This document shows positions 1-18,282 of a stretch of DNA of 33,232 nucleotides, one piece after another. How positions within the stretch are numbered: the first letter of the stretch is position 1; each line of letters starts with the position of its first letter. The stretch is taken from positions 1-33,232 of the forward strand of contig JBGFRZ010000050.1 in assembly GCA_041694835.1 (NCBI GenBank). Reading direction: 5' to 3'. The notes beneath the pieces are model-generated. The model was not told where the DNA came from. It saw nothing but the letters and a program-made list of their open reading frames with translations, and ran no database searches. Made by a program: the position numbers and the translations under genes. Origin of the DNA: Ignavibacteria bacterium (GTDB lineage: Bacteria; Elusimicrobiota; Endomicrobiia; PHAN01).

Positions 1-197
1 TAAAATTAAGATATTGGCGGAAAATTTTGGAAAATGAAAAATTATGGGAAGATGGTATTATCAATGTAATTTTTAGGGAAGGAAAAACTCTAAAGTTATT
101 ATTAAAATTTTTTGCCTCTCAAAATATCACGCCATATAAAAAATTACACAATCTGTTAAGCGAGAGAATAACAAAATATTTTAAGCATAAAGAATAG
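1..197 (+). CDS. 3' end of an AT-rich hypothetical protein (5' part outside window)
   Basis: The frame starting at nt 3 is open to TAG at 195-197 (KLRYWRKILENEKLW...KYFKHKE*). No family recognised. Confidence 0.6.
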   Translation, partial: KLRYWRKILENEKLWEDGIINVIFREGKTLKLLLKFFASQNITPYKKLHNLLSERITKYFKHKE

Positions 198-198
198 C

Positions 199-293
199 AT
201 GAAACCCATAAAAATTAGAGTACCTGCGCCTGCGGCAAATCTCGGCAGCATGACCACGATGTGTTTGGATCGGCAGTTAATCTATATATAGAG
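199..293 (+). pseudogene. thrB: Duplicated, frameshifted 5' fragment of thrB
   Basis: ATGAAACCCATAAAAATTAGA...GCGGCAAATCTCGGCAGC nearly matches the thrB start at 2836 (MKPIKIRVPAPAANLGS vs MKPIKIRIPATAANLGS). After a frameshift it reads DVFGSAVNLYIE vs DSFGVALNLYNE. Confidence 0.85.
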
Positions 294-343
294 TGAGATT
301 AAAAAATAGCCCAAGTAATCAGATTATGAAAGGAGGCTTCGAT

Positions 344-568
344 ATGAACCGAATTACAACTAATCCAAAAGTTTTGGGAGGGAAACCAATTATTAAGGGA
401 ACTCGGATTTCTGTAAGTTTGATTTTGGATTTGATTGCAAGTGGCATGACTGATAGTGATATCGTAAAAGAATACCCTCATCTTAAAGTCGCAGATATTC
501 ATGAAGCAGCAAAGTATGCCGCTTCGGTAATGGAAAAAGACCGCAGAGTGCTTCTTGGAGCAAAATGA
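344..568 (+). CDS. DUF433 family putative antitoxin
   Basis: RITTNPKVLGGKPIIKGTRISV...EYPHL...I..A..YA is the DUF433 signature. AAGGAGG at 330-336 favours ATG 344 over 293. Confidence 0.9.
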   Translation: MNRITTNPKVLGGKPIIKGTRISVSLILDLIASGMTDSDIVKEYPHLKVADIHEAAKYAASVMEKDRRVLLGAK

Positions 569-666
569 GTGTGAAAATTTTATTAGATGAAAATATTGCT
601 GATTCCACGAAAGTATTTTTACGAAATTTTGGATATGATGTAAAAGATATAAAATGTAAGAATTAG
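565..666 (+). pseudogene. Truncated DUF5615/PIN-like toxin (33 aa)
   Basis: ATGA overlap with the DUF433 stop. MSVKILLDENIADSTKVFLRNFGYDV matches the N-terminus of DUF5615 PIN-like partners of DUF433. It stops after 33 codons. Confidence 0.75.
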
Positions 667-688
667 AGGATAAAATAGTCCAATAATA

Positions 689-1039
689 ATGAAAACCATA
701 AAAGTAAAAATTCCAGCAGCAGCGTGGGCGGATTTTCTCTGTTATGTCACTCCGTCGGAACATCTTTCGCTCCCTGATATTGACGATGTAAAAAATGGCG
801 TGATGGCTTCAAGAATAGCCGCTCATGCGGCCGACATCGCCAAAGGACTTAACGAAGCGCGAGTTCTTGACGACAAAATGTCGTATTACAGAAAAAAACT
901 TAACTGGCAAGAACAAAAAAAATATGCCCTCGACCCGGCTAAGTTCGCTCAGATAAGAGAGAAGAAAATATCAAGAACAAGTCGCAGAGCGTCCGTCTGC
1001 AGCATGTGCGGAAGTTTCTGCGCAATGAAGCAGGGTTAA
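689..1039 (+). pseudogene. thiC: Chimeric fragment: thrB-like N-terminus fused to the ThiC C-terminal ~105 aa
   Basis: MKTIKVKIPA resembles the ThrB start. ADFLCYVTPSEHL...ASRIAAHAADIAKG...CSMCGSFCAM is the ThiC C-terminus with its Fe-S Cys cluster. Most of ThiC is absent. Confidence 0.85.
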
Positions 1040-1046
1040 AAGTGAA

Positions 1047-1991
1047 ATGATGAAAAATCAAAAGTGTAAAGAAAAGAAGTATAAAACGAAGGAAAAAACA
1101 GACATTATTCGTGAACAGTTGGGATTAAGTTTTTGCTCCGAGCCGAGCACAGCATTATCAGAAGTTAAAAAATCAAAACATCCAAAAACGACCATTTATA
1201 ACGATATAGACCTAAATAAATGGAAAGAATATTCGGATATAATAACCGATAGTTTGTGGTTGCTGGGCGCTCGGGATAAAAGCGGCGCTCATAGCGGAGA
1301 ATATCATGGAAATTTTGTTCCACAAATTCCACATCAAGCAATACTTCGATATACCAAAAAAAATGAAATAGTGCTTGATACCTTTTTAGGGAGTGGCACA
1401 ACTTTAATTGAATGCAAAAGATTAGGGCGTTGTGGATTAGGCATTGAATTATTACCCGACATGGTGAAAAGAGCTAAAGAACTTATCGGACAGGAACCAA
1501 ATTCTTATGATGTAAAAACAGATGTTATAGAAGGTGATAATACGGATATAGAAACGATTGGGCTGCTAAAAAAAACGCTTAAAGAAAAGTATAATACTGA
1601 CAAAGTCCAACTTATTACAATGCACCCCCCTTATCACGACATAATAAAATTCAGCAATAATCCAAAAGATTTGTGCAATGCAAGAACAACCGAAGAGTTT
1701 TTGAACAAATTTTCACAAGGCGTAAAAAATACTTGTCCCCTTCTTGCGGAGAAAAGATTTTTAGTGTTGGTTATAGGAGATAAATACAGTCAAGGCGAAT
1801 GGATACCTCTGGGTTTTTATACTATGCAAAAAGTTATAGAAAACGGTTTCAAACTTAAAAGCATTGCAATAAAAAATATTTCTGGCAATCGCGCAAAACG
1901 GAATGCAGAACAACTCTGGCGACGCCGCGCGCTTGGCGGCGGATTTTATATTTTCAGGCACGAATACATAATGTTTTTCCAGAAAAGGTAA
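1047..1991 (+). CDS. Amino (N4-C/N6-A) DNA methyltransferase
   Basis: SAM motif VLDTFLGSGTT, catalytic-type motif MHPPY, HGNFVPQIP. AT-rich. The start could be 1050. Confidence 0.85.
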   Translation: MMKNQKCKEKKYKTKEKTDIIREQLGLSFCSEPSTALSEVKKSKHPKTTIYNDIDLNKWKEYSDIITDSLWLLGARDKSGAHSGEYHGNFVPQIPHQAILRYTKKNEIVLDTFLGSGTTLIECKRLGRCGLGIELLPDMVKRAKELIGQEPNSYDVKTDVIEGDNTDIETIGLLKKTLKEKYNTDKVQLITMHPPYHDIIKFSNNPKDLCNARTTEEFLNKFSQGVKNTCPLLAEKRFLVLVIGDKYSQGEWIPLGFYTMQKVIENGFKLKSIAIKNISGNRAKRNAEQLWRRRALGGGFYIFRHEYIMFFQKR

Positions 1992-1997
1992 AATGAA

Positions 1998-2831
1998 ATG
2001 CCTTTATTAACTCAAAAAGAAGTTAGAAATCTTAAATTGAGTTCCATTCCGATAGAAAAACTCAAAAATTTTGCTGAATCTATAGTCCATTGTAGCGACA
2101 AAAATGCGACAAACATAATTAAAAAGCTTATAGATGTTTCAAATATAGATTCCTCAATAGATGCATTCATCAAACAAAAATATGCCGTTAGAATAAAGGA
2201 GAGAAAAAATTTAATAAGCGATGCGGGTTTAATAAAAGAATTGTATAAAGTAAAAAATTTTTCTTGGAGTGTGGTTCAAGGACAATTGGACCAAAAAATT
2301 CAAACAGAATATGTTAGAAAAATTGTACATTATGACGATTTAATTAGCAATGTCAAAACTAAATTACACGATGATATTACTTCTTATGTGATTTGTACCT
2401 GGTACAACCACTGGACAACGGTTTTAGTTGAAGAACATATAAGCCAGCATCCAAAAGTAGTCTCCACCCTAAAAAACATAAAGGGAGTTGATATTTTTTT
2501 TGATAACCAACCATTTGATTTAAAAACCACATATCTCCCGAAAGATTATGACATACAAGATGTAATAAAAAACCTCAAAAATTTAGCGACATGGATGTAT
2601 GAAAATCAAGGTGCCCAAAGATTCGGGGCAGATAATAGGTTATTTGTGATTTTAGTAGATGTAAAAAATTAAGAAGAAAGCTGGAAACTAAAAAGAAATT
2701 TTGATTTAGTATTTAAAAAAATTGATGAATTTTTTGATACTGAAAAAGTAACACTAAATGATGAAATTACATTTAGTTTCGCAAAAAAGACCTACACAAC
2801 AGTTTCAAAAGTTTTGTTAATCACAAATTAA
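1998..2831 (+). pseudogene. Putative PD-(D/E)xK restriction endonuclease interrupted by an in-frame TAA at 2670-2672
   Basis: Directly follows the MTase and has the motif GVDIFFDNQPFDLK. After the stop the same frame continues 52 protein-like codons (EESWKLKRNFDLV...VLLITN*) up to thrB. Confidence 0.7.
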
Positions 2832-2835
2832 AAAT

Positions 2836-3774
2836 ATGAAACCCATAAAAATTAGAATTCCTGCGACGGCGGCAAATCTCGGCAGCGGATTTGACAGTTT
2901 CGGCGTCGCTTTAAACCTTTACAATGAAATTGAAGTGATTGAGATTAGAGGAGAGAGAACAGAGAACAGAGGACAGAGGTCAGAGGTCAGAATTGATATT
3001 AAAGGAGAAGGGAAGGATTCGCTTCCGGGAGATGAAAAAAATATCGTCTGGAAAGCGATGAAAAAAGTATTTAATAAAGCAGGTCAAAGGTTAAAGGGCA
3101 AAGGTCAAAATTTAAAAATAAAATTGCTCAATCGAATTCCCATGGCAAGCGGGCTGGGTAGTTCGGCGGCGGCGGTGCTCGGGGGGCTTCTTGTGGCGAA
3201 TAAAATTTGCTATAATAAACTTTCCGATGACGAAATACTGAAACTCGCTGTTGAATTGGAAGGCCATCCGGACAACATCGTGCCGGCATTTGCCGGAGGC
3301 TTGTGCATCTGCTACAGCGAAAACGGAAAAACCGGATATCTGAAACTGAAAATGACAAGCGATTTAAAAGCGGTCGTTTGCACTCCGAATTTCGAACTTT
3401 CGACGAAATTCGCAAGAAAAATTCTACCCCAAAAACTTCCTATGGAATCGGCGGTATTCAACCTCTCTCGCTCGGCCATTCTGGTCGCCTCAATTTTAAA
3501 ACAAAATTATGGACTTTTGAAAATCGGGATGGATGACAGGATACATCAGATTCACAGAGGGAGATACATACCCGGCATAAAAAAAGTTTTTGAAAAAGCG
3601 TATAAAAGCGGAGCATACGGCGTCGCAATATCCGGCTCGGGTCCATCTATAGTTTCATTCTCTTCGGCGATTAAAGCGAAAAGCGTTGCTTCTGCGATGG
3701 AAAAAGGATTTAAATCTACAGGTGTCAAATGCAGAAGTTTCATATTAGATTTTGAAAATAAGGGAGCCGTTTAA
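2836..3774 (+). CDS. thrB: Homoserine kinase
   Basis: PATAANLGSGFD, IPMASGLGSSAA (GHMP motif), EGHPDN, ISGSGPS. Confidence 0.97.
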   Translation: MKPIKIRIPATAANLGSGFDSFGVALNLYNEIEVIEIRGERTENRGQRSEVRIDIKGEGKDSLPGDEKNIVWKAMKKVFNKAGQRLKGKGQNLKIKLLNRIPMASGLGSSAAAVLGGLLVANKICYNKLSDDEILKLAVELEGHPDNIVPAFAGGLCICYSENGKTGYLKLKMTSDLKAVVCTPNFELSTKFARKILPQKLPMESAVFNLSRSAILVASILKQNYGLLKIGMDDRIHQIHRGRYIPGIKKVFEKAYKSGAYGVAISGSGPSIVSFSSAIKAKSVASAMEKGFKSTGVKCRSFILDFENKGAV

Positions 3775-3775
3775 C

Positions 3776-4990
3776 ATGTCTTTGATAGTAATGAAATTCG
3801 GCGGTTCGTCGGTAGCGGATGCGGATAAAATAAAAAATGTCGCCAATCGCGTCATAGAGAGAGCCCGAAAAAACAAAGTTGTGGTTGTTGTTTCAGCGCC
3901 TGGCGACATGACCGACGACCTTATAGAGCTTTCGAGAAAGGTAACCGATTCGCCCGATGATCGCGAAATGGATATGCTCATTTCTACGGGTGAGCAAGTT
4001 TCCATAGCCCTGCTTACGATGGCGATAAAATCGTGCGGAGTCAACGCCATATCTCTTACCGGTCCGCAGGCTGGAATCTACGCCGACACGTCCCATACGA
4101 AAGCCAGGATAACGAAGATTATACCGACTAAAATAAACAATGAACTCTCAAAGGGGAAAGTCGTGATAGTCGCGGGATTTCAAGGTATAAACCCGCATGA
4201 AGACATAACTACCCTCGGCCGGGGCGGTTCGGATTTGACCGCTGTTGCTCTTGCTGCCGCGTTAAAATCCAATGAATGCGAGATTTATACCGATGTTGAC
4301 GGCGTATATACAACCGACCCCCGCGTCGTTAAAGAGGCGAAGAAGATACCAGTCGTATCCTATGATGAAATGCTCGAGATGGCTGGCTCGGGGGCTCAAG
4401 TAATGCAAGGACGTTCCATTGAAGTGGCGAAGAAGTTCGGGGTCAAAATTCATGTCAGGTCGAGTTTCAAAAAAACGGAAGGCACGAGCATAATGGAGGA
4501 GGGTTCAGAAGTGGAAGAGGTTGTGGTCAGGGCTGTAACATTCGACAAGAATCAGGTTAAACTTTCGATACTGGATATTCCCGACAGACCGGGGATTGCT
4601 TCAAAGATATTCGGCGAGCTTGCGAAGGAATCGATAAATGTTGACATGATTATACAATCCGCCGCTCGTCAGAAATATAACGACATATCGTTTACGGTCG
4701 CCCGTCCAGACATAAAAAAAACGCACAATATCCTGAATGCACTTAAAAAAACTCTGGGTGCATCCGGCGTTATCGTCGATGATACCGTGGCGAAAGTTTC
4801 GATAGTGGGCGTCGGCATGAAGAGTCATCCGGGGGTGGCTTCGACGATGTTCAATGCCCTCGCTAAAAAAGGCATAAATATAGAAATGATATCGACAAGC
4901 GAAATAAAAATTTCATGTGTCATAAAAGCCGCTGATATTGAAAAGGCGGTAGCCACTCTTCACAGGGCGTTTGAATTGGAGAAAAAATAA
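3776..4990 (+). CDS. lysC: Aspartate kinase
   Basis: MKFGGSSV, TTLGRGGSD, YTDVDGVYTTDPR, two C-terminal ACT domains. Start at ATG 3776. Confidence 0.97.
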   Translation: MSLIVMKFGGSSVADADKIKNVANRVIERARKNKVVVVVSAPGDMTDDLIELSRKVTDSPDDREMDMLISTGEQVSIALLTMAIKSCGVNAISLTGPQAGIYADTSHTKARITKIIPTKINNELSKGKVVIVAGFQGINPHEDITTLGRGGSDLTAVALAAALKSNECEIYTDVDGVYTTDPRVVKEAKKIPVVSYDEMLEMAGSGAQVMQGRSIEVAKKFGVKIHVRSSFKKTEGTSIMEEGSEVEEVVVRAVTFDKNQVKLSILDIPDRPGIASKIFGELAKESINVDMIIQSAARQKYNDISFTVARPDIKKTHNILNALKKTLGASGVIVDDTVAKVSIVGVGMKSHPGVASTMFNALAKKGINIEMISTSEIKISCVIKAADIEKAVATLHRAFELEKK

Positions 4991-7214: not shown

Positions 7215-8864
7215 ATGTTAAGCGATACGATTAAAAAGGGAGTAAATCGCGCTCCTAACAGATGCCTCATATATGCTACCGGGGTTTCGCCGTCAGATAT
7301 GGGGAAACCGTTTATCGGCGTAGCGTCTTCGTTCAGCGATCTTGTTCCGGGACACATAAACATGCGGGAACTTGAAAGGCATATAGAAAGAGGAGTGGCC
7401 GCTGGTGGCGGAGTTCCTTTTATTTTTGGCATACCAGCCGTCTGCGACGGAATAGCTATGGGACATTCCGGCATGCATTTTTCCCTGCCTTCAAGAGAAC
7501 TGATAGCGGACTCAGTAGAAACTGTCGCAAGGGCACATGCCCTCGACGGCCTTGTTCTGCTTACAAACTGCGACAAAATAACACCCGGAATGCTTATAGC
7601 CGCTGCTCGATTAAACATTCCATCGATAGTCGTAACCGCCGGCCCGATGATGACTGGAAAATATAAGGGAAAAAGAAGGTCACTTGTCAGGGATACATTT
7701 GAAGCAGTCGGTCTTTATCAAGCCGGCAAAATTGACGAAAAAGAGGTTGCGAACCTCGAGATGGTGTCGTGTCCCGGCGCTGGTTCTTGCCAGGGGCTAT
7801 ATACAGCAAACACTATGGCATGCCTCACCGAAACTATGGGTATGAGCATTGAAGGTTGTGCAACCGCCGCAGCTGTTTCCGCTAAGAAAAGTCGCATAGC
7901 TTATGAATCGGGAATAAGAATAGTCAAGTTGGTAAAAGAAAATCTTACCCCGAGAAGAATAATGACACTGAACGCTTTCAAGAATGCCATCTCGGTTGAC
8001 ATGGCGATTGGTGGCTCGACAAATACGGTGCTCCATCTCCCCGCCATAGCGGCGGAGGCGGGAGTAAAGATAGAACTCAAACTCTTTGACACGATATCCA
8101 GAAACACGCCTAATATTTTGAAACTTGAACCAGCGGGAGAACACTACATGGAGGATCTAGAAACCGCGGGCGGAATCAGCGCCGTTCTTTTTGCCATTAA
8201 AAACAAAATAGAGTCATCTCTCACTGTAAACGGCAGGAACATCCTTGAAATAGCTAAATCCGGGCGCATAACCGATGCGGATGTAATCCGCGTCAAAACC
8301 CCTTATAGCCATGAGGGAGGCATAGCGATTTTGGGCGGGAACATCGCTCCGAACGGCTGCGTAGTCAAACAATCCGCCGTCTCGGAGAAAGCAAGAAGGT
8401 TTACGGGCCGCGCTCGAATATTCGATTCTGAAGAGTTGGCTATGAAAGCGGTTGTGGATAAAAAAATAAAAAAGGGCGATGTAATAGTCATAAGATACGA
8501 AGGTCCGAAGGGCGGACCAGGCATGAGAGAGATGTTGTCAGTTACCTCGGCTATCGTGGGACAGGGGCTTTCCGATTCGGTCGCGCTGGTTACCGACGGA
8601 AGATTCTCGGGAGGAACCAGGGGGCCGTGCGTGGGACATGTAAGCCCCGAGGCAGCCGAGGGCGGGCCGATATCTGTTGTAAGGGAAGGCGACACGATAA
8701 ACATAGACATACCTGCAAGAAAAATAGACGTTAGGCTTACGGAATCCGAGATAAAAGTGCGACTTGCGACGTGGAAAGCGCCTTCACCGAAGTTCAAGTA
8801 TGGATATCTCTCAAGGTATGCCAAATTAGTTACAAATGCGTCGACAGGCGCGATATTGAAATAG
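7215..8864 (+). CDS. ilvD: Dihydroxy-acid dehydratase
   Basis: [58 protein letters not shown] precedes ATG 7215. Confidence 0.97.
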
Positions 8865-8902
8865 TATATGTAGTAGGCAGTAAGTAGGGGGTAGAGGAAA
8901 TT

Positions 8903-10633
8903 ATGAAACTAACCGGAGCGCAAATTTTTGTTGAAAGTTTGAAACGACTAAATGTAGAAGTTGTCTTCGGCATACCCGGTGGTTCGGTTCTTCCGATATT
9001 CGATAAAATTTACGACGCCCCCTTCAAATTCATTTTAACGAGACACGAGCAGGGAGCGGCTCATATGGCCGACGGATACGCCCGTTCGACCGGAAGGGTG
9101 GGGGTGTGCTTTGCGACATCGGGCCCCGGAGCAACGAATCTTACAACGGGCATAGCAACTGCGTATATGGACTCGATTCCCATGGTGGCATTCACAGGGC
9201 AGGTGGCGACGACGCTTATAGGAAACGACGCTTTTCAAGAGGCGGATACGACGGGTATTACCCGCCCCATCGTTAAACACAATTATCTCGTTAAAGACGT
9301 GAGGGAGCTATCAAAAACCATAAGAGCGGCGTTTTACATAGCATTCACGGGCCGTCCCGGCCCGGTCCTCGTCGACATACCTGTCGATGTGCAGAGGGCG
9401 ACATGCGACTTTGAGTGGCCTGAAAATATCGAGATAAGTTCGTATAAACCAACTTATGCCGGACATCCGTCGCAGATAAAACGAGCGGCCGAAGCCATAA
9501 ACTCAAGCAAAAAGCCGGTGCTTTACGTCGGCGGAGGCGTTATTTCGTCAGATGCCAGCCCGGAACTTATCAAACTCTCCGAACTGGCCGGAATTCCGGT
9601 TACGGCCACGCTTATGGCGAAAGGCGTCTATCCTCCCAGTCACAAGTTTTATCTCGGGATGCTTGGAATGCATGGGACATACGCGGCTAATCACGCGATG
9701 CAAAACGCCGATCTGATAATAGCGGTTGGCTCAAGATTCGATGACAGATGTACCGGAAAAATCGCCGGCTTCGCTCCTCATGCGGCGAACATAATTCATA
9801 TAGACATAGATCCGACTTCTATATCCAAAAACGTGCATTCAAACATACCGGTTGTAGGCGACGCAAAAAGTATCCTTTCGCAGATTTTAAAACACGTGAA
9901 GAAAGCCGTTCATGCGGACTGGATCGCGAAAATCACCGAGTGGAAGAAAAACTATCCTTTGACATACAAAAACGACGACAAACTTCGCGCGCAGTATGTT
10001 ATTGAAACCTTAAGCGAAATCACCGGGGGCTCGGCCATAGTCACCACCGAAGTCGGACAGCACCAGATGTGGAGCGCCCAGTTTTACAAGACCGAATATC
10101 CTCGTCATTTTCTCTCGTCGGGCGGTCTTGGAACAATGGGTTATGGTTTTCCCGCCGGTATTGGTGCCAAGATAGCGAATCCGGAAGAAGATGTTATTGT
10201 CATAGCCGGAGATGGCTCTATACAGATGAACATTCAGGAACTCGCCACAGCCGTTTTGAACAAGATAAATGTAAAAGTTCTCATAATGAACAATCAGTAT
10301 CTTGGAATGGTTCGCCAGTGGCAGGAGATGTTTTATTCAAGAAGATACTCCGCTGTCTGCCTTCACAAGTCGGACGAATGTCCGTCCAAATGTGATGAGC
10401 CCGGCAGGAAAGGTTGTCCGAGATATATCCCCGATTTTGTAAAAGTCGCGGAGGCTTACGGAGCCGTCGGAATGAGGATATCTAAAAAGAGCGAAGTGAA
10501 GCAGGCTTTGAAGAAGATAATCTCGGCTAATGCTGTAGTCGTGGCCGAGTTCATAGTGGAGCCCGAGGAAAATGTTCTCCCGATGGTTCCATCTGGGGCC
10601 GCTTTGGACGAGATAATAACAAGCTTGGCATAA
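8903..10633 (+). CDS. ilvB: Acetolactate synthase large subunit
   Basis: RHEQGAAHMADGYAR, TSGPGATN, TPP motif GDGS...NN, GMVRQWQ. Confidence 0.97.
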   Translation: MKLTGAQIFVESLKRLNVEVVFGIPGGSVLPIFDKIYDAPFKFILTRHEQGAAHMADGYARSTGRVGVCFATSGPGATNLTTGIATAYMDSIPMVAFTGQVATTLIGNDAFQEADTTGITRPIVKHNYLVKDVRELSKTIRAAFYIAFTGRPGPVLVDIPVDVQRATCDFEWPENIEISSYKPTYAGHPSQIKRAAEAINSSKKPVLYVGGGVISSDASPELIKLSELAGIPVTATLMAKGVYPPSHKFYLGMLGMHGTYAANHAMQNADLIIAVGSRFDDRCTGKIAGFAPHAANIIHIDIDPTSISKNVHSNIPVVGDAKSILSQILKHVKKAVHADWIAKITEWKKNYPLTYKNDDKLRAQYVIETLSEITGGSAIVTTEVGQHQMWSAQFYKTEYPRHFLSSGGLGTMGYGFPAGIGAKIANPEEDVIVIAGDGSIQMNIQELATAVLNKINVKVLIMNNQYLGMVRQWQEMFYSRRYSAVCLHKSDECPSKCDEPGRKGCPRYIPDFVKVAEAYGAVGMRISKKSEVKQALKKIISANAVVVAEFIVEPEENVLPMVPSGAALDEIITSLA

Positions 10634-16539: not shown

Positions 16540-18282
16540 ATGGAAGGAATTATCACGAAGGTTTCAGGGCCTCTCGTCGTAGCAAAAGGGCTTTATGGAA
16601 TAAAAATGTTTGATATGGTAAAGGTAGGCGCGCATGGGTTGATAGGCGAAGTTATCGAATTAAAGGAAGACACAGCGGCAATCCAGGTTTACGAGGAAAC
16701 GACCGGCATAGGCCCCGGAGAAAAAGTCGTGTCCGTGGAGCATCCGTTGTCGGTTGAGCTCGGCCCGGGACTTCTCGGAACTATATACGACGGCATACAG
16801 AGGCCTCTTGAAGTAATATATAACGAGAGGGGGGCATGGATCACAAAGGGGGTCGATGTGACGGGGTTGAATCACAGAAAAAAATGGCGTTTCATTCCGC
16901 AGAAATCCTCGGGCGATGAAGTCGTTGGCGGCGATATACTTGGCAGCGTCTCTGAAACAGAAATCGTCAGCCACAAAATAATGGTCCCTATTGGGATTTC
17001 GGGAACAATTAAAAAGATATCGGAAGGCGACTTCCCTGTCGATGAAGTTGTGGTTGTAATTGAGGACGCAAAAGATAAAAAAGATGTACAGATAAATATG
17101 GTTCAGCGATGGCCGGTTCGAATCCCCCGACCGTACAAAGAAAAATTGGCCCCGGACGAACCTCTAATTACCGGTCAGCGCGTGGTTGACACATTCTTTC
17201 CCGTCTCAAAAGGTGGAACGGCTTGCATCCCCGGCCCTTTTGGTTCAGGAAAAACAGTGATACAGCATCAACTCGCGAAATGGTCGGACGCGGACATTAT
17301 AGTTTATGTCGGTTGCGGTGAAAGAGGCAACGAGATGGCCGATGTCCTCCTGGAGTTTCCTCATCTAAAAGACCCAAAGTCCGGCGAACCGCTGATTAAA
17401 AGGACAGTTCTTATCGCGAACACGTCGAACATGCCCGTGGCGGCGCGCGAGGCGTCGGTTTATACGGGCATCACCATAGCGGAGTATTTCAGGGATATGG
17501 GATACAACGTCGCTTTGATGGCGGACTCAACTTCCCGTTGGGCCGAGGCGATGAGAGAGATGTCGGGACGGCTTGAGGAGATGCCAGGTGAAGAGGGTTA
17601 TCCCGCGTATCTTTCGTCGAGGATAGCGGAGTTTTACGAAAGAGCCGGGAAAGTCGTCTGCTGCGCTTCCGATGGAAGGATAGGTTCGCTTTCGGTAATA
17701 GGAGCGGTATCCCCTCCCGGAGGCGATCTTTCCGATCCTGTTGTTCAGGCGACTTTGAGGATAGTAAAAGTATTCTGGTCGCTTGAGGATAAACTCGCGT
17801 ATCAAAGGCATTTTCCTGCGATATCGTGGCTCAGGTCATACTCGCTTTATATCGACAATATAGAAAACTATATGAAAGAAAAAATAGCCAAAAATTTCAT
17901 CGCAAACCGCTCATCCGCGATGAAGATTCTTCAGGAGGAGGCATCGCTTGAGGAAATCGTGCGGCTTGTCGGCGTGGATGCTCTTTCCGACGCAGACCGA
18001 CTTACCCTTGAAACCGCAAAATCTCTGAGAGAAGATTTTCTTCACCAGCATGCTTTCGATCCGGAGGATACCTACTGCGCTCTTGAGAAACAGAACATGC
18101 TTATGGAACTGATTCTTAATTTTCACAAAATGAGGACTTTGGCTGTAGATTCTGGCGCCCCGCTTAAAGCGCATTCGGAGGTAAAAGAGAAGATATCGCG
18201 ATTAAAATATGTTAAGGCAGATGAAACGACACAGAGTATATCCGAGATTAAAAAACAAATTGAAGCGGAACTAAAATCCTAA
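16540..18282 (+). CDS. atpA: V/A-type ATP synthase subunit A
   Basis: P-loop [30 protein letters not shown] precedes ATG 16540. Confidence 0.98.

What the first reader, a model, noticed from the sequence alone, without database searches (positions are those of the whole stretch)
199..2900. Cassette accretion site punctuated by three thrB 5' ends and a thiC 3' end
Seen: thrB-like starts at 199, 689 and 2836 each follow immediately after an accessory module: an unknown AT-rich gene, DUF433 with a truncated PIN gene, and MTase with nuclease. The copies differ from each other, and the 689 copy runs into the 3' third of thiC. Inference: the native locus is thiC-[cargo]-thrB. Defence/TA cassettes from related genomes arrived with flanking pieces of those genes and were stacked in tandem, making an integrase-free array that uses housekeeping gene ends as recombination arms.
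Basis: partly seen in the sequence, partly recalled or inferred. Interest (0 to 1): 0.75.

Follow-up and report, generated by a model that had tools for sequence, protein, structure and literature searches.

The report
Defence cassettes stacked between gene-end scars
Two DNA restriction-methylation modules and a toxin-antitoxin pair have piled up between two normally adjacent housekeeping genes, separated by leftover copies of those genes' ends; this is a real example of a known but poorly explained way that defence genes are added without an integrase.

Summary
The window starts mid-gene: 1-197 is the tail of an HpyAIV-family restriction enzyme whose front lies at the end of contig C64, behind an intact thiC. 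The locus reads thiC - RM-A - thrB' - DUF433/PIN' - thrB' - 'thiC - MTase B/broken ORF B - thrB. thiC and thrB are under 100 nt apart in 25 of 38 relatives. The thiC piece is 328/333 identical to the resident gene. The 199 copy is a mosaic: 51 nt resident-like, then 42 nt of a distant thrB orthologue, the best sign that a leftover served as a recombination arm. Similar scars flank toxin-antitoxin pairs at three other sites in this genome. No integrase lies in the interval; competence genes are present. Best reading (0.6): stepwise host recombination of foreign alleles. It resembles published 'insertion with long target duplication' of RM genes and displacement arrays. This scan found the same pattern before in other genomes. 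No reads or conspecific genome were available, so assembly and event order are unproven.

The parts
1..197 (+). C-terminal 64 codons of restriction enzyme A (HpyAIV family); the N-terminal 229 codons, MTase A and the intact thiC lie at the end of contig C64 (thiC 39765-41018, MTase A 41026-41925, REase A 41943-end)
   Evidence: 8-nt in-frame overlap of C64 end and window start; in 24 of 26 homologous loci both pieces are contiguous in one frame; NF045832 above cut-off, PADLOC REase_II
199..249 (+). thrB 5' leftover, codons 1-17, resident-like
   Evidence: 47/51 nt identical to 2836-2886; last 18 nt identical; similarity starts exactly at the ATG
252..293 (+). thrB codons 18-31 from a distant orthologue, shifted by 2 nt against the piece before it
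   Evidence: 19/42 nt but 8 of 14 residues kept through synonymous changes; 4 of 3.8 million genome positions score as high; 0 of 20000 random-decay simulations reach the score
344..568 (+). DUF433 gene (putative antitoxin)
   Evidence: PF04255 E 7.5e-24; antitoxin role recalled, not tested
565..666 (+). truncated PIN-like (DUF5615) gene, 33 codons
   Evidence: PF18480 E 0.031, below cut-off; 50% identical over 30 aa to the gene behind DUF433 in L082, weaker in L085
689..724 (+). second thrB 5' leftover (codons 1-10 or 1-12), orthologue-like, fused in frame to the thiC piece
   Evidence: 28/36 nt to resident; its changes keep the family profile score (17 of 20000 decay simulations reach it for codons 1-10)
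726..1058 (+). second copy of the thiC 3' end (codon 315 to the stop at 1039) plus the spacer and first four codons of the next methyltransferase
   Evidence: 328/333 identical to C64:40705-41037; of five changes one alters a residue
1047..1991 (+). Type II DNA methyltransferase B, open
   Evidence: PF01555 E 7e-21; PADLOC MTase_II E 7.6e-112
1998..2831 (+). ORF B, presumed partner nuclease, broken by a stop at 2670-2672
   Evidence: 1118 homologues, best 79% identical and mostly 277 aa; no credible Pfam, NCBIfam or PADLOC match; nearest named Atlas clusters include restriction enzymes at 0.78-0.80, a lead only
2836..3774 (+). intact thrB (homoserine kinase)
   Evidence: GHMP kinase domains; single copy, orthologues in 38 of 40 relatives

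Best explanation
The thiC-thrB junction took up foreign alleles of itself, one after another, through the host's own recombination. Incoming DNA from other strains or species carried a cargo module coupled to its own thrB start or thiC end. It paired in the conserved gene on one side and was joined on the other side through short or imperfect homology inside the first codons of thrB or the last quarter of thiC. The resident module was therefore pushed aside, not replaced, and its gene end stayed behind as a scar. Once a module has a scar on each side, the scar can act as the second arm in a later transfer. Events that delete a resident RM or TA module or break thiC/thrB are selected against, so the survivors are stacks with both housekeeping genes whole; the cargo then decays (PIN truncated, ORF B stopped). 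Shown: the anatomy, the native adjacency, the orthologue-like divergence and the mosaic scar. Inferred: DNA uptake as the route, the order of events, and selection by addiction.
For: Native adjacency in 25 of 38 relatives. Cargo is AT-rich (GC 0.29-0.36 against 0.43-0.47 for thrB, thiC, lysC). The thrB scars begin exactly at the ATG, and the C7 and C65 scars end at the stop codon, with no similarity beyond, as expected for alleles with different neighbours. Differences are synonymous-biased or family-conserving: 8 of 14 codons synonymous at 252-293, 10 synonymous to 1 non-synonymous at C7, decay simulations rejected. The 199 scar switches from resident-like to distant-orthologue sequence at codon 17/18. 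The C7 scar opens with 29 identical nt before 13 mismatches (P about 0.006-0.015), like a crossover zone. Four different gene ends are involved and I saw no shared junction motif by eye. The genome holds comEC, dprA, a ComM-type domain and recA, only two tyrosine recombinases that read like XerC/XerD and one serine recombinase beside tRNA-Pro on another contig. The same model was proposed for Vibrio T6SS arrays (PMC5361080, passages).
Against: No conspecific genome, empty site or read set was available, so no event is observed directly. mutS is present, which from established knowledge should curb recombination between sequences as diverged as the 252-293 donor. The thiC repeat is near-identical and spans stop and next start, which fits a duplication made at insertion equally well. 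Competence genes are widespread (comEC rings in 10 of 14 control genomes) and prove no uptake. The identical-run statistic is significant only at C7 (199: P 0.18; at C65 detection may depend on the run). No scar was seen near thrB in any relative's locus, though that search is only marginally sensitive to 17-codon pieces. The published HFIR model for arrays is itself a hypothesis, and HFIR is reported to be rare.
Confidence: 0.6

Rival explanations
1. Insertion with long target duplication in the strict sense: the RM-A + TA unit (about 2.6 kb) entered a thiC-RM-B-thrB chromosome in one event, helped by a restriction break, and the 333-nt thiC end was copied from the target at that moment.
For: The unit holds R and M genes, is under 20 kb and is flanked by a 333-nt, 98.5% direct repeat that spans a stop and a start, matching the criteria and remarks in PMC2853133. 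The C86 HicBA pair has a similar 111-nt, 94.6% repeat.
Against: It does not explain the orthologue-like thrB scars or the C7 and C65 scars around TA pairs that have no restriction gene between the repeats. RM-A homologues in 26 other loci show no duplicated gene end around them that I could identify (some loci have short flanks; two show intergenic direct repeats near or around the RM genes). It describes an outcome and overlaps with the best explanation.
Confidence: 0.17
2. Tandem accretion of integrative elements: site-specific elements targeted the thrB start or thiC end, restored the gene with their own copy, and then lost their integrases (CIME-like decay).
For: Scars at exact gene ends and identical inner blocks of 18-29 nt resemble att cores. 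Accretion of decayed elements at gene ends is documented (PMC5704250, passages).
Against: No integrase or relaxase-like gene was found in the 4.4-kb interval or among the ORFs scanned at C7 and C65. The genome's recombinases lie elsewhere. The break points in thrB differ (codon 10-12, 17, 31), the thiC repeat is 333 nt, and four different targets would need several lost integrases.
Confidence: 0.11
3. Assembly artefact: strain variants with RM-A or RM-B at the same slot were stitched into one path.
For: Fragmented genome (89 contigs) with a contig break inside the locus; two alternative RM modules start after the same 333 nt. The fused ORF 689-1039 is recorded on this contig only.
Against: The thrB'-'thiC junction has no repeat long enough for a graph assembler to invent it: self-comparison of 1-2935 found only the 51-nt and 333-nt repeats. 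The longest identical run in the thiC repeat is 120 nt, while ten contig pairs overlap by exactly 121 nt, suggesting k near 121 (inference). The scars carry frameshifts and decay. Contamination is 0.38% and thrB is single-copy.
Confidence: 0.08
4. Local tandem duplications of the thiC-thrB junction within one lineage, followed by decay and independent capture of cargo.
For: 199-249 and the thiC piece are 92% and 98.5% identical to the resident genes.
Against: Random decay of the resident sequence does not give the 252-293 or 689 pieces (0 and 17 of 20000 simulations); they were under protein-level selection while diverging.
Confidence: 0.04

Closest known systems
Insertion with long target duplication of restriction-modification systems (Furuta, Abe, Kobayashi 2010, PMC2853133; abstract passage, passages and sections 14-15 read; Nobusato et al. 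2000 seen only as a citation)
   Same: R+M insert under 20 kb, no mobile-element gene, direct repeat over 30 nt that spans a stop or start and leaves the target whole, insertion into an operon-like junction, host with competence genes.
   Different: Three modules are stacked; both a 3' end (thiC) and a 5' end (thrB) are duplicated; several repeats are diverged orthologue pieces (45-92%), whereas the five published repeats I saw in their Table 2 differ by 0-2 nt in 45-47; TA pairs show the same scars; no empty-site genome here.
Displacement arrays of T6SS effector-immunity, Rhs and CDI loci by homology-facilitated illegitimate recombination (Kirchberger et al. 2017, PMC5361080; passages read)
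   Same: One conserved anchor, one non-homologous joint, the old module shifted aside with a leftover gene end, no integrase known, mosaics from several donors.
   Different: The anchors are housekeeping genes that stay intact, the cargo is RM/TA, and the leftover is the anchor gene's own start or end.
CIMEs and site-specific tandem accretion at gene ends (review PMC5704250; passages read)
   Same: Tandem modules separated by copies of a target gene end, without integration genes.
   Different: No fixed att core, variable break points, no integrase-bearing member found.
RM insertions between contiguous genes in Ca. Endomicrobium trichonymphae (Zheng et al. 2015, PMC4760077; parts 1-2 of 3 read)
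   Same: RM modules, often pseudogenised, wedged between genes that are contiguous in relatives; no transposons. Same phylum by earlier scan notes (not tested here).
   Different: [quoted passage not shown]

Membership tests
[quoted passage not shown] | insert holds both R and M homologues | tested here: met
   MTase A (PF01555) and HpyAIV-family REase between the thiC repeats
[quoted passage not shown] | insert shorter than 20 kb, no integrase or transposase in it | tested here: met
   about 2.6 kb between repeat starts; genes are MTase, REase, DUF433, PIN fragment
[quoted passage not shown] | flanking direct repeat longer than 30 nt, unique in the genome | tested here: met
   333 nt, 328 identical, two copies only
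[quoted passage not shown] | a conspecific genome with one copy of the repeat at an empty site | not testable with these tools
   no genome of the same genus held; family-level relative G001 has thiC and thrB 5 nt apart, which shows ancestry, not the matching empty allele
HFIR displacement array | one homologous anchor plus a joint with little or no homology | tested here: inconclusive
   the 724/726 joint has only a few GC-rich matching bases, but the donor and recipient alleles are unknown
HFIR displacement array | leftovers come from different donors | tested here: met
   pieces at 92%, 78% and 45% to resident thrB; decay rejected
HFIR displacement array | formation by transformation, RecA-dependent | not testable with these tools
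   only gene presence checked
CIME / IME tandem accretion | one fixed att core repeated at every joint | tested here: not met
   thrB pieces end at codons 10-12, 17 and 31; thiC repeat 333 nt; no common junction motif seen by eye
CIME / IME tandem accretion | related integrase-bearing elements at the same site | tested here: inconclusive
   none in this genome or in the thiC-thrB gaps of relatives; no close relatives available
Integron | integron integrase beside the array and attC sites | tested here: not met
   the only two PF00589 genes are on C54 and C14 and read like XerD/XerC (label from my reading of the sequences); attC sites were not searched for

The most novel reading that the evidence does not exclude
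Small RM and TA cassettes circulate between species armed only with scraps of a former host's gene ends, and re-integrate by those scraps into the orthologous gene of a new host. The DUF433/PIN module, bracketed by distant-thrB codons 18-31 on its left and diverged-thrB codons 1-12 on its right, would be a fossil of exactly that step (a circle or two-armed fragment crossing over inside the thrB start). That is the release-and-reinfection step of the virus-like cycle that PMC2853133 proposes for repeat-flanked RM systems and calls unproven, here extended to TA pairs and working genome-wide without any integrase.
Probability: 0.25. Interest if true: 0.6.

Novelty: new variant of a known kind. 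Interest (0 to 1): 0.34.

Why it matters
How defence and addiction modules enter operons without integrases is an open question; the outcome is published but the mechanism is not settled. This locus adds one useful clue: a scar that is half resident-like and half distant orthologue, which points to reuse of old scars as recombination arms across species, and it shows the same footprint for TA pairs at other sites. If general, gene-end scars would let one read the order and donors of insertions from a single genome. The value is limited because this is one uncultured, fragmented genome with no reads and no close relatives, and the scan has already noted the pattern elsewhere.

Tried and rejected
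Sequencing runs: none was listed for window 1-3800, so no reads were laid. Metagenome scan with thrB gave one distant locus (39%). Whether other assemblies hold these exact proteins stayed open: the cluster look-up could not be made; the homologue search found the fused ORF on this contig only. Phylum-wide search with a thrB N-terminal profile (253 of 401 genomes matched at E<=1) listed 150 rows, among which I saw no second copy beside thrB, but 215 weaker rows were not shown, so it is inconclusive; a closer look at four relatives found no second copy near thrB; one search added nothing. ORF B homologues occur in 10 of 400 and close DUF433 homologues in 4 of 400 other genomes of the phylum; none of these matches lies in a genome position next to a listed thrB except one DUF433 about 4 kb downstream of the thrB start in G081, not followed up. 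RM-A homologues are not flanked by gene-end repeats, so the repeats are not part of that family. Plasmid search with MTase B gave only distant hits. Promoter and terminator counts in 1-3000 are at shuffle level (10 vs 11.5; 3 vs 2.0). The 8-nt contig overlap alone was rejected as proof (5 such pairs among contig ends); the homologues carry the join. A genome-wide excess test was weak: most hits are paralogues or dispersed repeats, and outputs were cut, so I saw only part of their rows. Paper searches for this locus or a matching description found nothing (one search gave seven papers with single mentions, listing only; one unrelated listing). The original HFIR paper was not held; Nobusato 2000, de Vries and Wackernagel 2002 and Prudhomme 2002 were seen only as citations. 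Supplements of PMC2853133 (Supplementary Figure 7) were not read and may hold stacked or diverged cases.
Full report
What is there. The window is the start of contig C75 of a 1.9-Mb, 89-contig genome. The intact thrB is at 2836-3774, followed by aspartate kinase. Two more thrB starts lie upstream. 199-249 matches codons 1-17 at 47/51 nt; 689-724 matches codons 1-12 at 28/36 nt. Scored with a profile from 29 relatives' thrB starts, each is matched or exceeded by only 2 of 3.8 million six-frame positions in the genome. The 689 copy runs in frame into the last 103 codons of thiC (PF01964).

The locus continues on another contig. A full thiC lies near the end of C64, followed by a methyltransferase and a restriction gene cut by the contig end. 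C64 ends with the 8 nt that open the window, in frame. Such an overlap alone means little (5 pairs of 8-nt overlaps among contig ends), but in 24 of 26 homologous loci the C64 piece and window 1-197 are contiguous in one frame with no residue missing; one of the other two ends at its contig end and one gave no hit at the cut-off. The gene is an HpyAIV-family enzyme. The order is therefore thiC - MTase A - REase A - thrB' - DUF433 - PIN' - thrB' - 'thiC - MTase B - ORF B - thrB, about 4.4 kb between the thiC stop and the thrB start. Window 726-1058 is 328/333 identical to the resident thiC end and includes the spacer and four codons shared by both methyltransferases. The cargo has GC 0.29-0.36 against 0.43-0.47 for the housekeeping genes. 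It is decaying: the PIN-like gene stops after 33 codons, and ORF B has a stop at codon 225 where most homologues run to 277. ORF B has no credible family match; calling it a nuclease is inference from its place behind a Type II methyltransferase and from weak Atlas neighbours.

The native state. Of 40 relatives, 38 gave a thrB match; thiC and thrB are under 100 nt apart in 25, 0.2-0.9 kb apart in 4, and unlinked or on different contigs in 9. G001, of the same family, has a 5-nt gap. The four wider gaps hold repeats or an unrelated gene, and no second thrB start or thiC end was seen in the relatives' loci (marginal sensitivity). So the junction is ancestral, and the stack is so far private to this genome; no genome of the same genus is held.

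Where the scars come from. The 199 copy does not stop at codon 17. After two extra bases, 252-293 encodes thrB codons 18-31 with only 19/42 nt identity but 8 of 14 residues kept, all eight through synonymous changes. Random decay of the resident sequence to that distance never reached its profile score (0 of 20000), and reached the score of 689 codons 1-10 in 17 of 20000 runs. These pieces diverged while they were working genes, so they come from other lineages or from very old alleles. The DUF433/PIN module is thus bracketed by diverged-thrB codons 18-31 on the left and diverged-thrB codons 1-12 on the right, which is what a crossover inside the thrB start between the host gene and a scar carried by the donor would leave. 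That both pieces come from one donor is inferred, not shown. The 724/726 joint is ambiguous: codons 11-13 read A-A-W, and both same-family relatives have A-A-W just before the thiC motif that follows, so a few bases may come from a diverged thiC joined through a 6-nt GC-rich match; a single later mutation explains it equally.

Other sites. Scans of about 1,300 ORFs gave mostly paralogues and dispersed repeats. By inspection three more cases remain. On C7 the last 93 nt of an aldehyde dehydrogenase gene recur behind a HicB-HicA pair (80/93 nt, 10 synonymous and 1 non-synonymous codon change), with a third, shorter copy further on. On C65 the last 42 nt of an Fe-S oxidoreductase gene recur behind a DUF4258/YgiT pair (34/42). 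On C86 a HicBA pair lies between 111-nt repeats of a leader (94.6%). In one search, 3' ends had orphan copies downstream for 3 of 1276 genes (one is a dispersed repeat) and upstream for none; 5' ends had them upstream for 4 and downstream for 1 (rows cut from view); these numbers are too small for a test. The gene-end scars start at the ATG or end at the stop; the C7 scar opens with 29 identical nt (P 0.006, or 0.015 on third positions), the 199 scar's 18-nt run is not significant (P 0.18), and no common junction motif was seen.

Mechanism. The genome has comEC, dprA, a ComM-type domain, recA and mutS. Its only two tyrosine recombinases read like XerC and XerD, and its one serine recombinase sits by tRNA-Pro on C11. 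I favour stepwise uptake of foreign alleles by host recombination, with one good anchor and one short or imperfect joint, later reuse of scars as arms, and selection for outcomes that keep thiC, thrB and the resident addiction module (0.6). The last three steps are inferred. Against it: mutS is present, no event is observed, and the near-identical thiC repeat fits a duplication at insertion as well (0.17). Decayed integrative elements (0.11) fail on variable break points and four different targets. Strain stitching (0.08) is unlikely because the key joint has no repeat across it and the longest identical run in the thiC repeat (120 nt) is below the 121-nt contig overlaps, but no reads were listed.

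Comparison with what is known. PMC2853133 (passages and sections 14-15) defines insertion with long target duplication: R and M genes, under 20 kb, a repeat over 30 nt, no other mobile element; it notes that repeats often span a start or stop, that most hosts are competent, and that release and reinfection are unproven. The RM-A unit meets the three testable criteria; the empty-site test could not be run. PMC5361080 (passages) proposes homology-facilitated illegitimate recombination for stacked T6SS modules. PMC4760077 reports RM insertions between contiguous genes in an Endomicrobium, without flanking repeats. PMC5704250 describes CIME accretion. I was led to the first of these by earlier scan notes, which report the same pattern in several other genomes; they are unchecked notes and I did not test their loci. 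Searches for a description of this locus found none, in a library that lacks most subscription papers.

Verdict. A real feature, correctly spotted, and a variant of a known kind. What it adds is stacking at both a 3' and a 5' gene end, orthologue-derived scars, TA cargo, and one mosaic scar that favours reuse of scars as arms. It is one fragmented genome without reads, so interest is moderate to low (0.34).

Noticed in passing
window 2947-2991: A 7-nt tandem repeat (6.4 copies) of the genome-wide family sits in frame inside the intact thrB, adding a low-complexity stretch; a second weak one at 3081-3109. The same family fills many intergenic places in the window.
   Followed up: no
L040 3686-9951 (G000:C7:11685-17950): Behind the aldehyde dehydrogenase gene: HicBA, a 93-nt copy of the gene end, an ORF6N remnant, a third shorter copy, then a HATPase gene, nucleotidyltransferase/HepT-like pair, HSDR_N gene, methyltransferase and HEPN gene; a larger defence pile-up than the one in the finding.
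   Followed up: partly
L041 4165-6435 (G000:C65:11164-13434): Behind the 858-aa Fe-S oxidoreductase: truncated DUF4258 and YgiT pair, a 42-nt copy of the gene end, two unknown genes and an RHH-PIN pair.
   Followed up: partly
L042 1198-1980 (G000:C86): HicB-HicA between 111-nt direct repeats of the leader of a VapB15-like/PIN pair.
   Followed up: partly
G000:C29:15104-15166 and 17217-17279: Two 63-nt pieces, 79% alike, that by recall resemble the 3' end of a Type IIG restriction-modification gene; possibly further scars.
   Followed up: no
G000:C61:38891-39388 and 40980-41162: A 145-aa gene and, 2 kb downstream, a copy of only its two ends with the middle missing.
   Followed up: no
whole genome G000: GATC is strongly under-counted (1532 against about 7900-9900 for GA-N2..7-TC) and GANTC mildly (6029); raw counts without a composition model.
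   Followed up: no
G000:C11:707-2371: A serine recombinase gene ends next to tRNA-Pro with a tRNA-like partial copy, the look of an ordinary integrated element.
   Followed up: no
window 1998-2831: ORF B belongs to a large unnamed family (1118 hits, mostly 277 aa) with no Pfam, NCBIfam or PADLOC model; a candidate undescribed restriction-enzyme family.
   Followed up: partly
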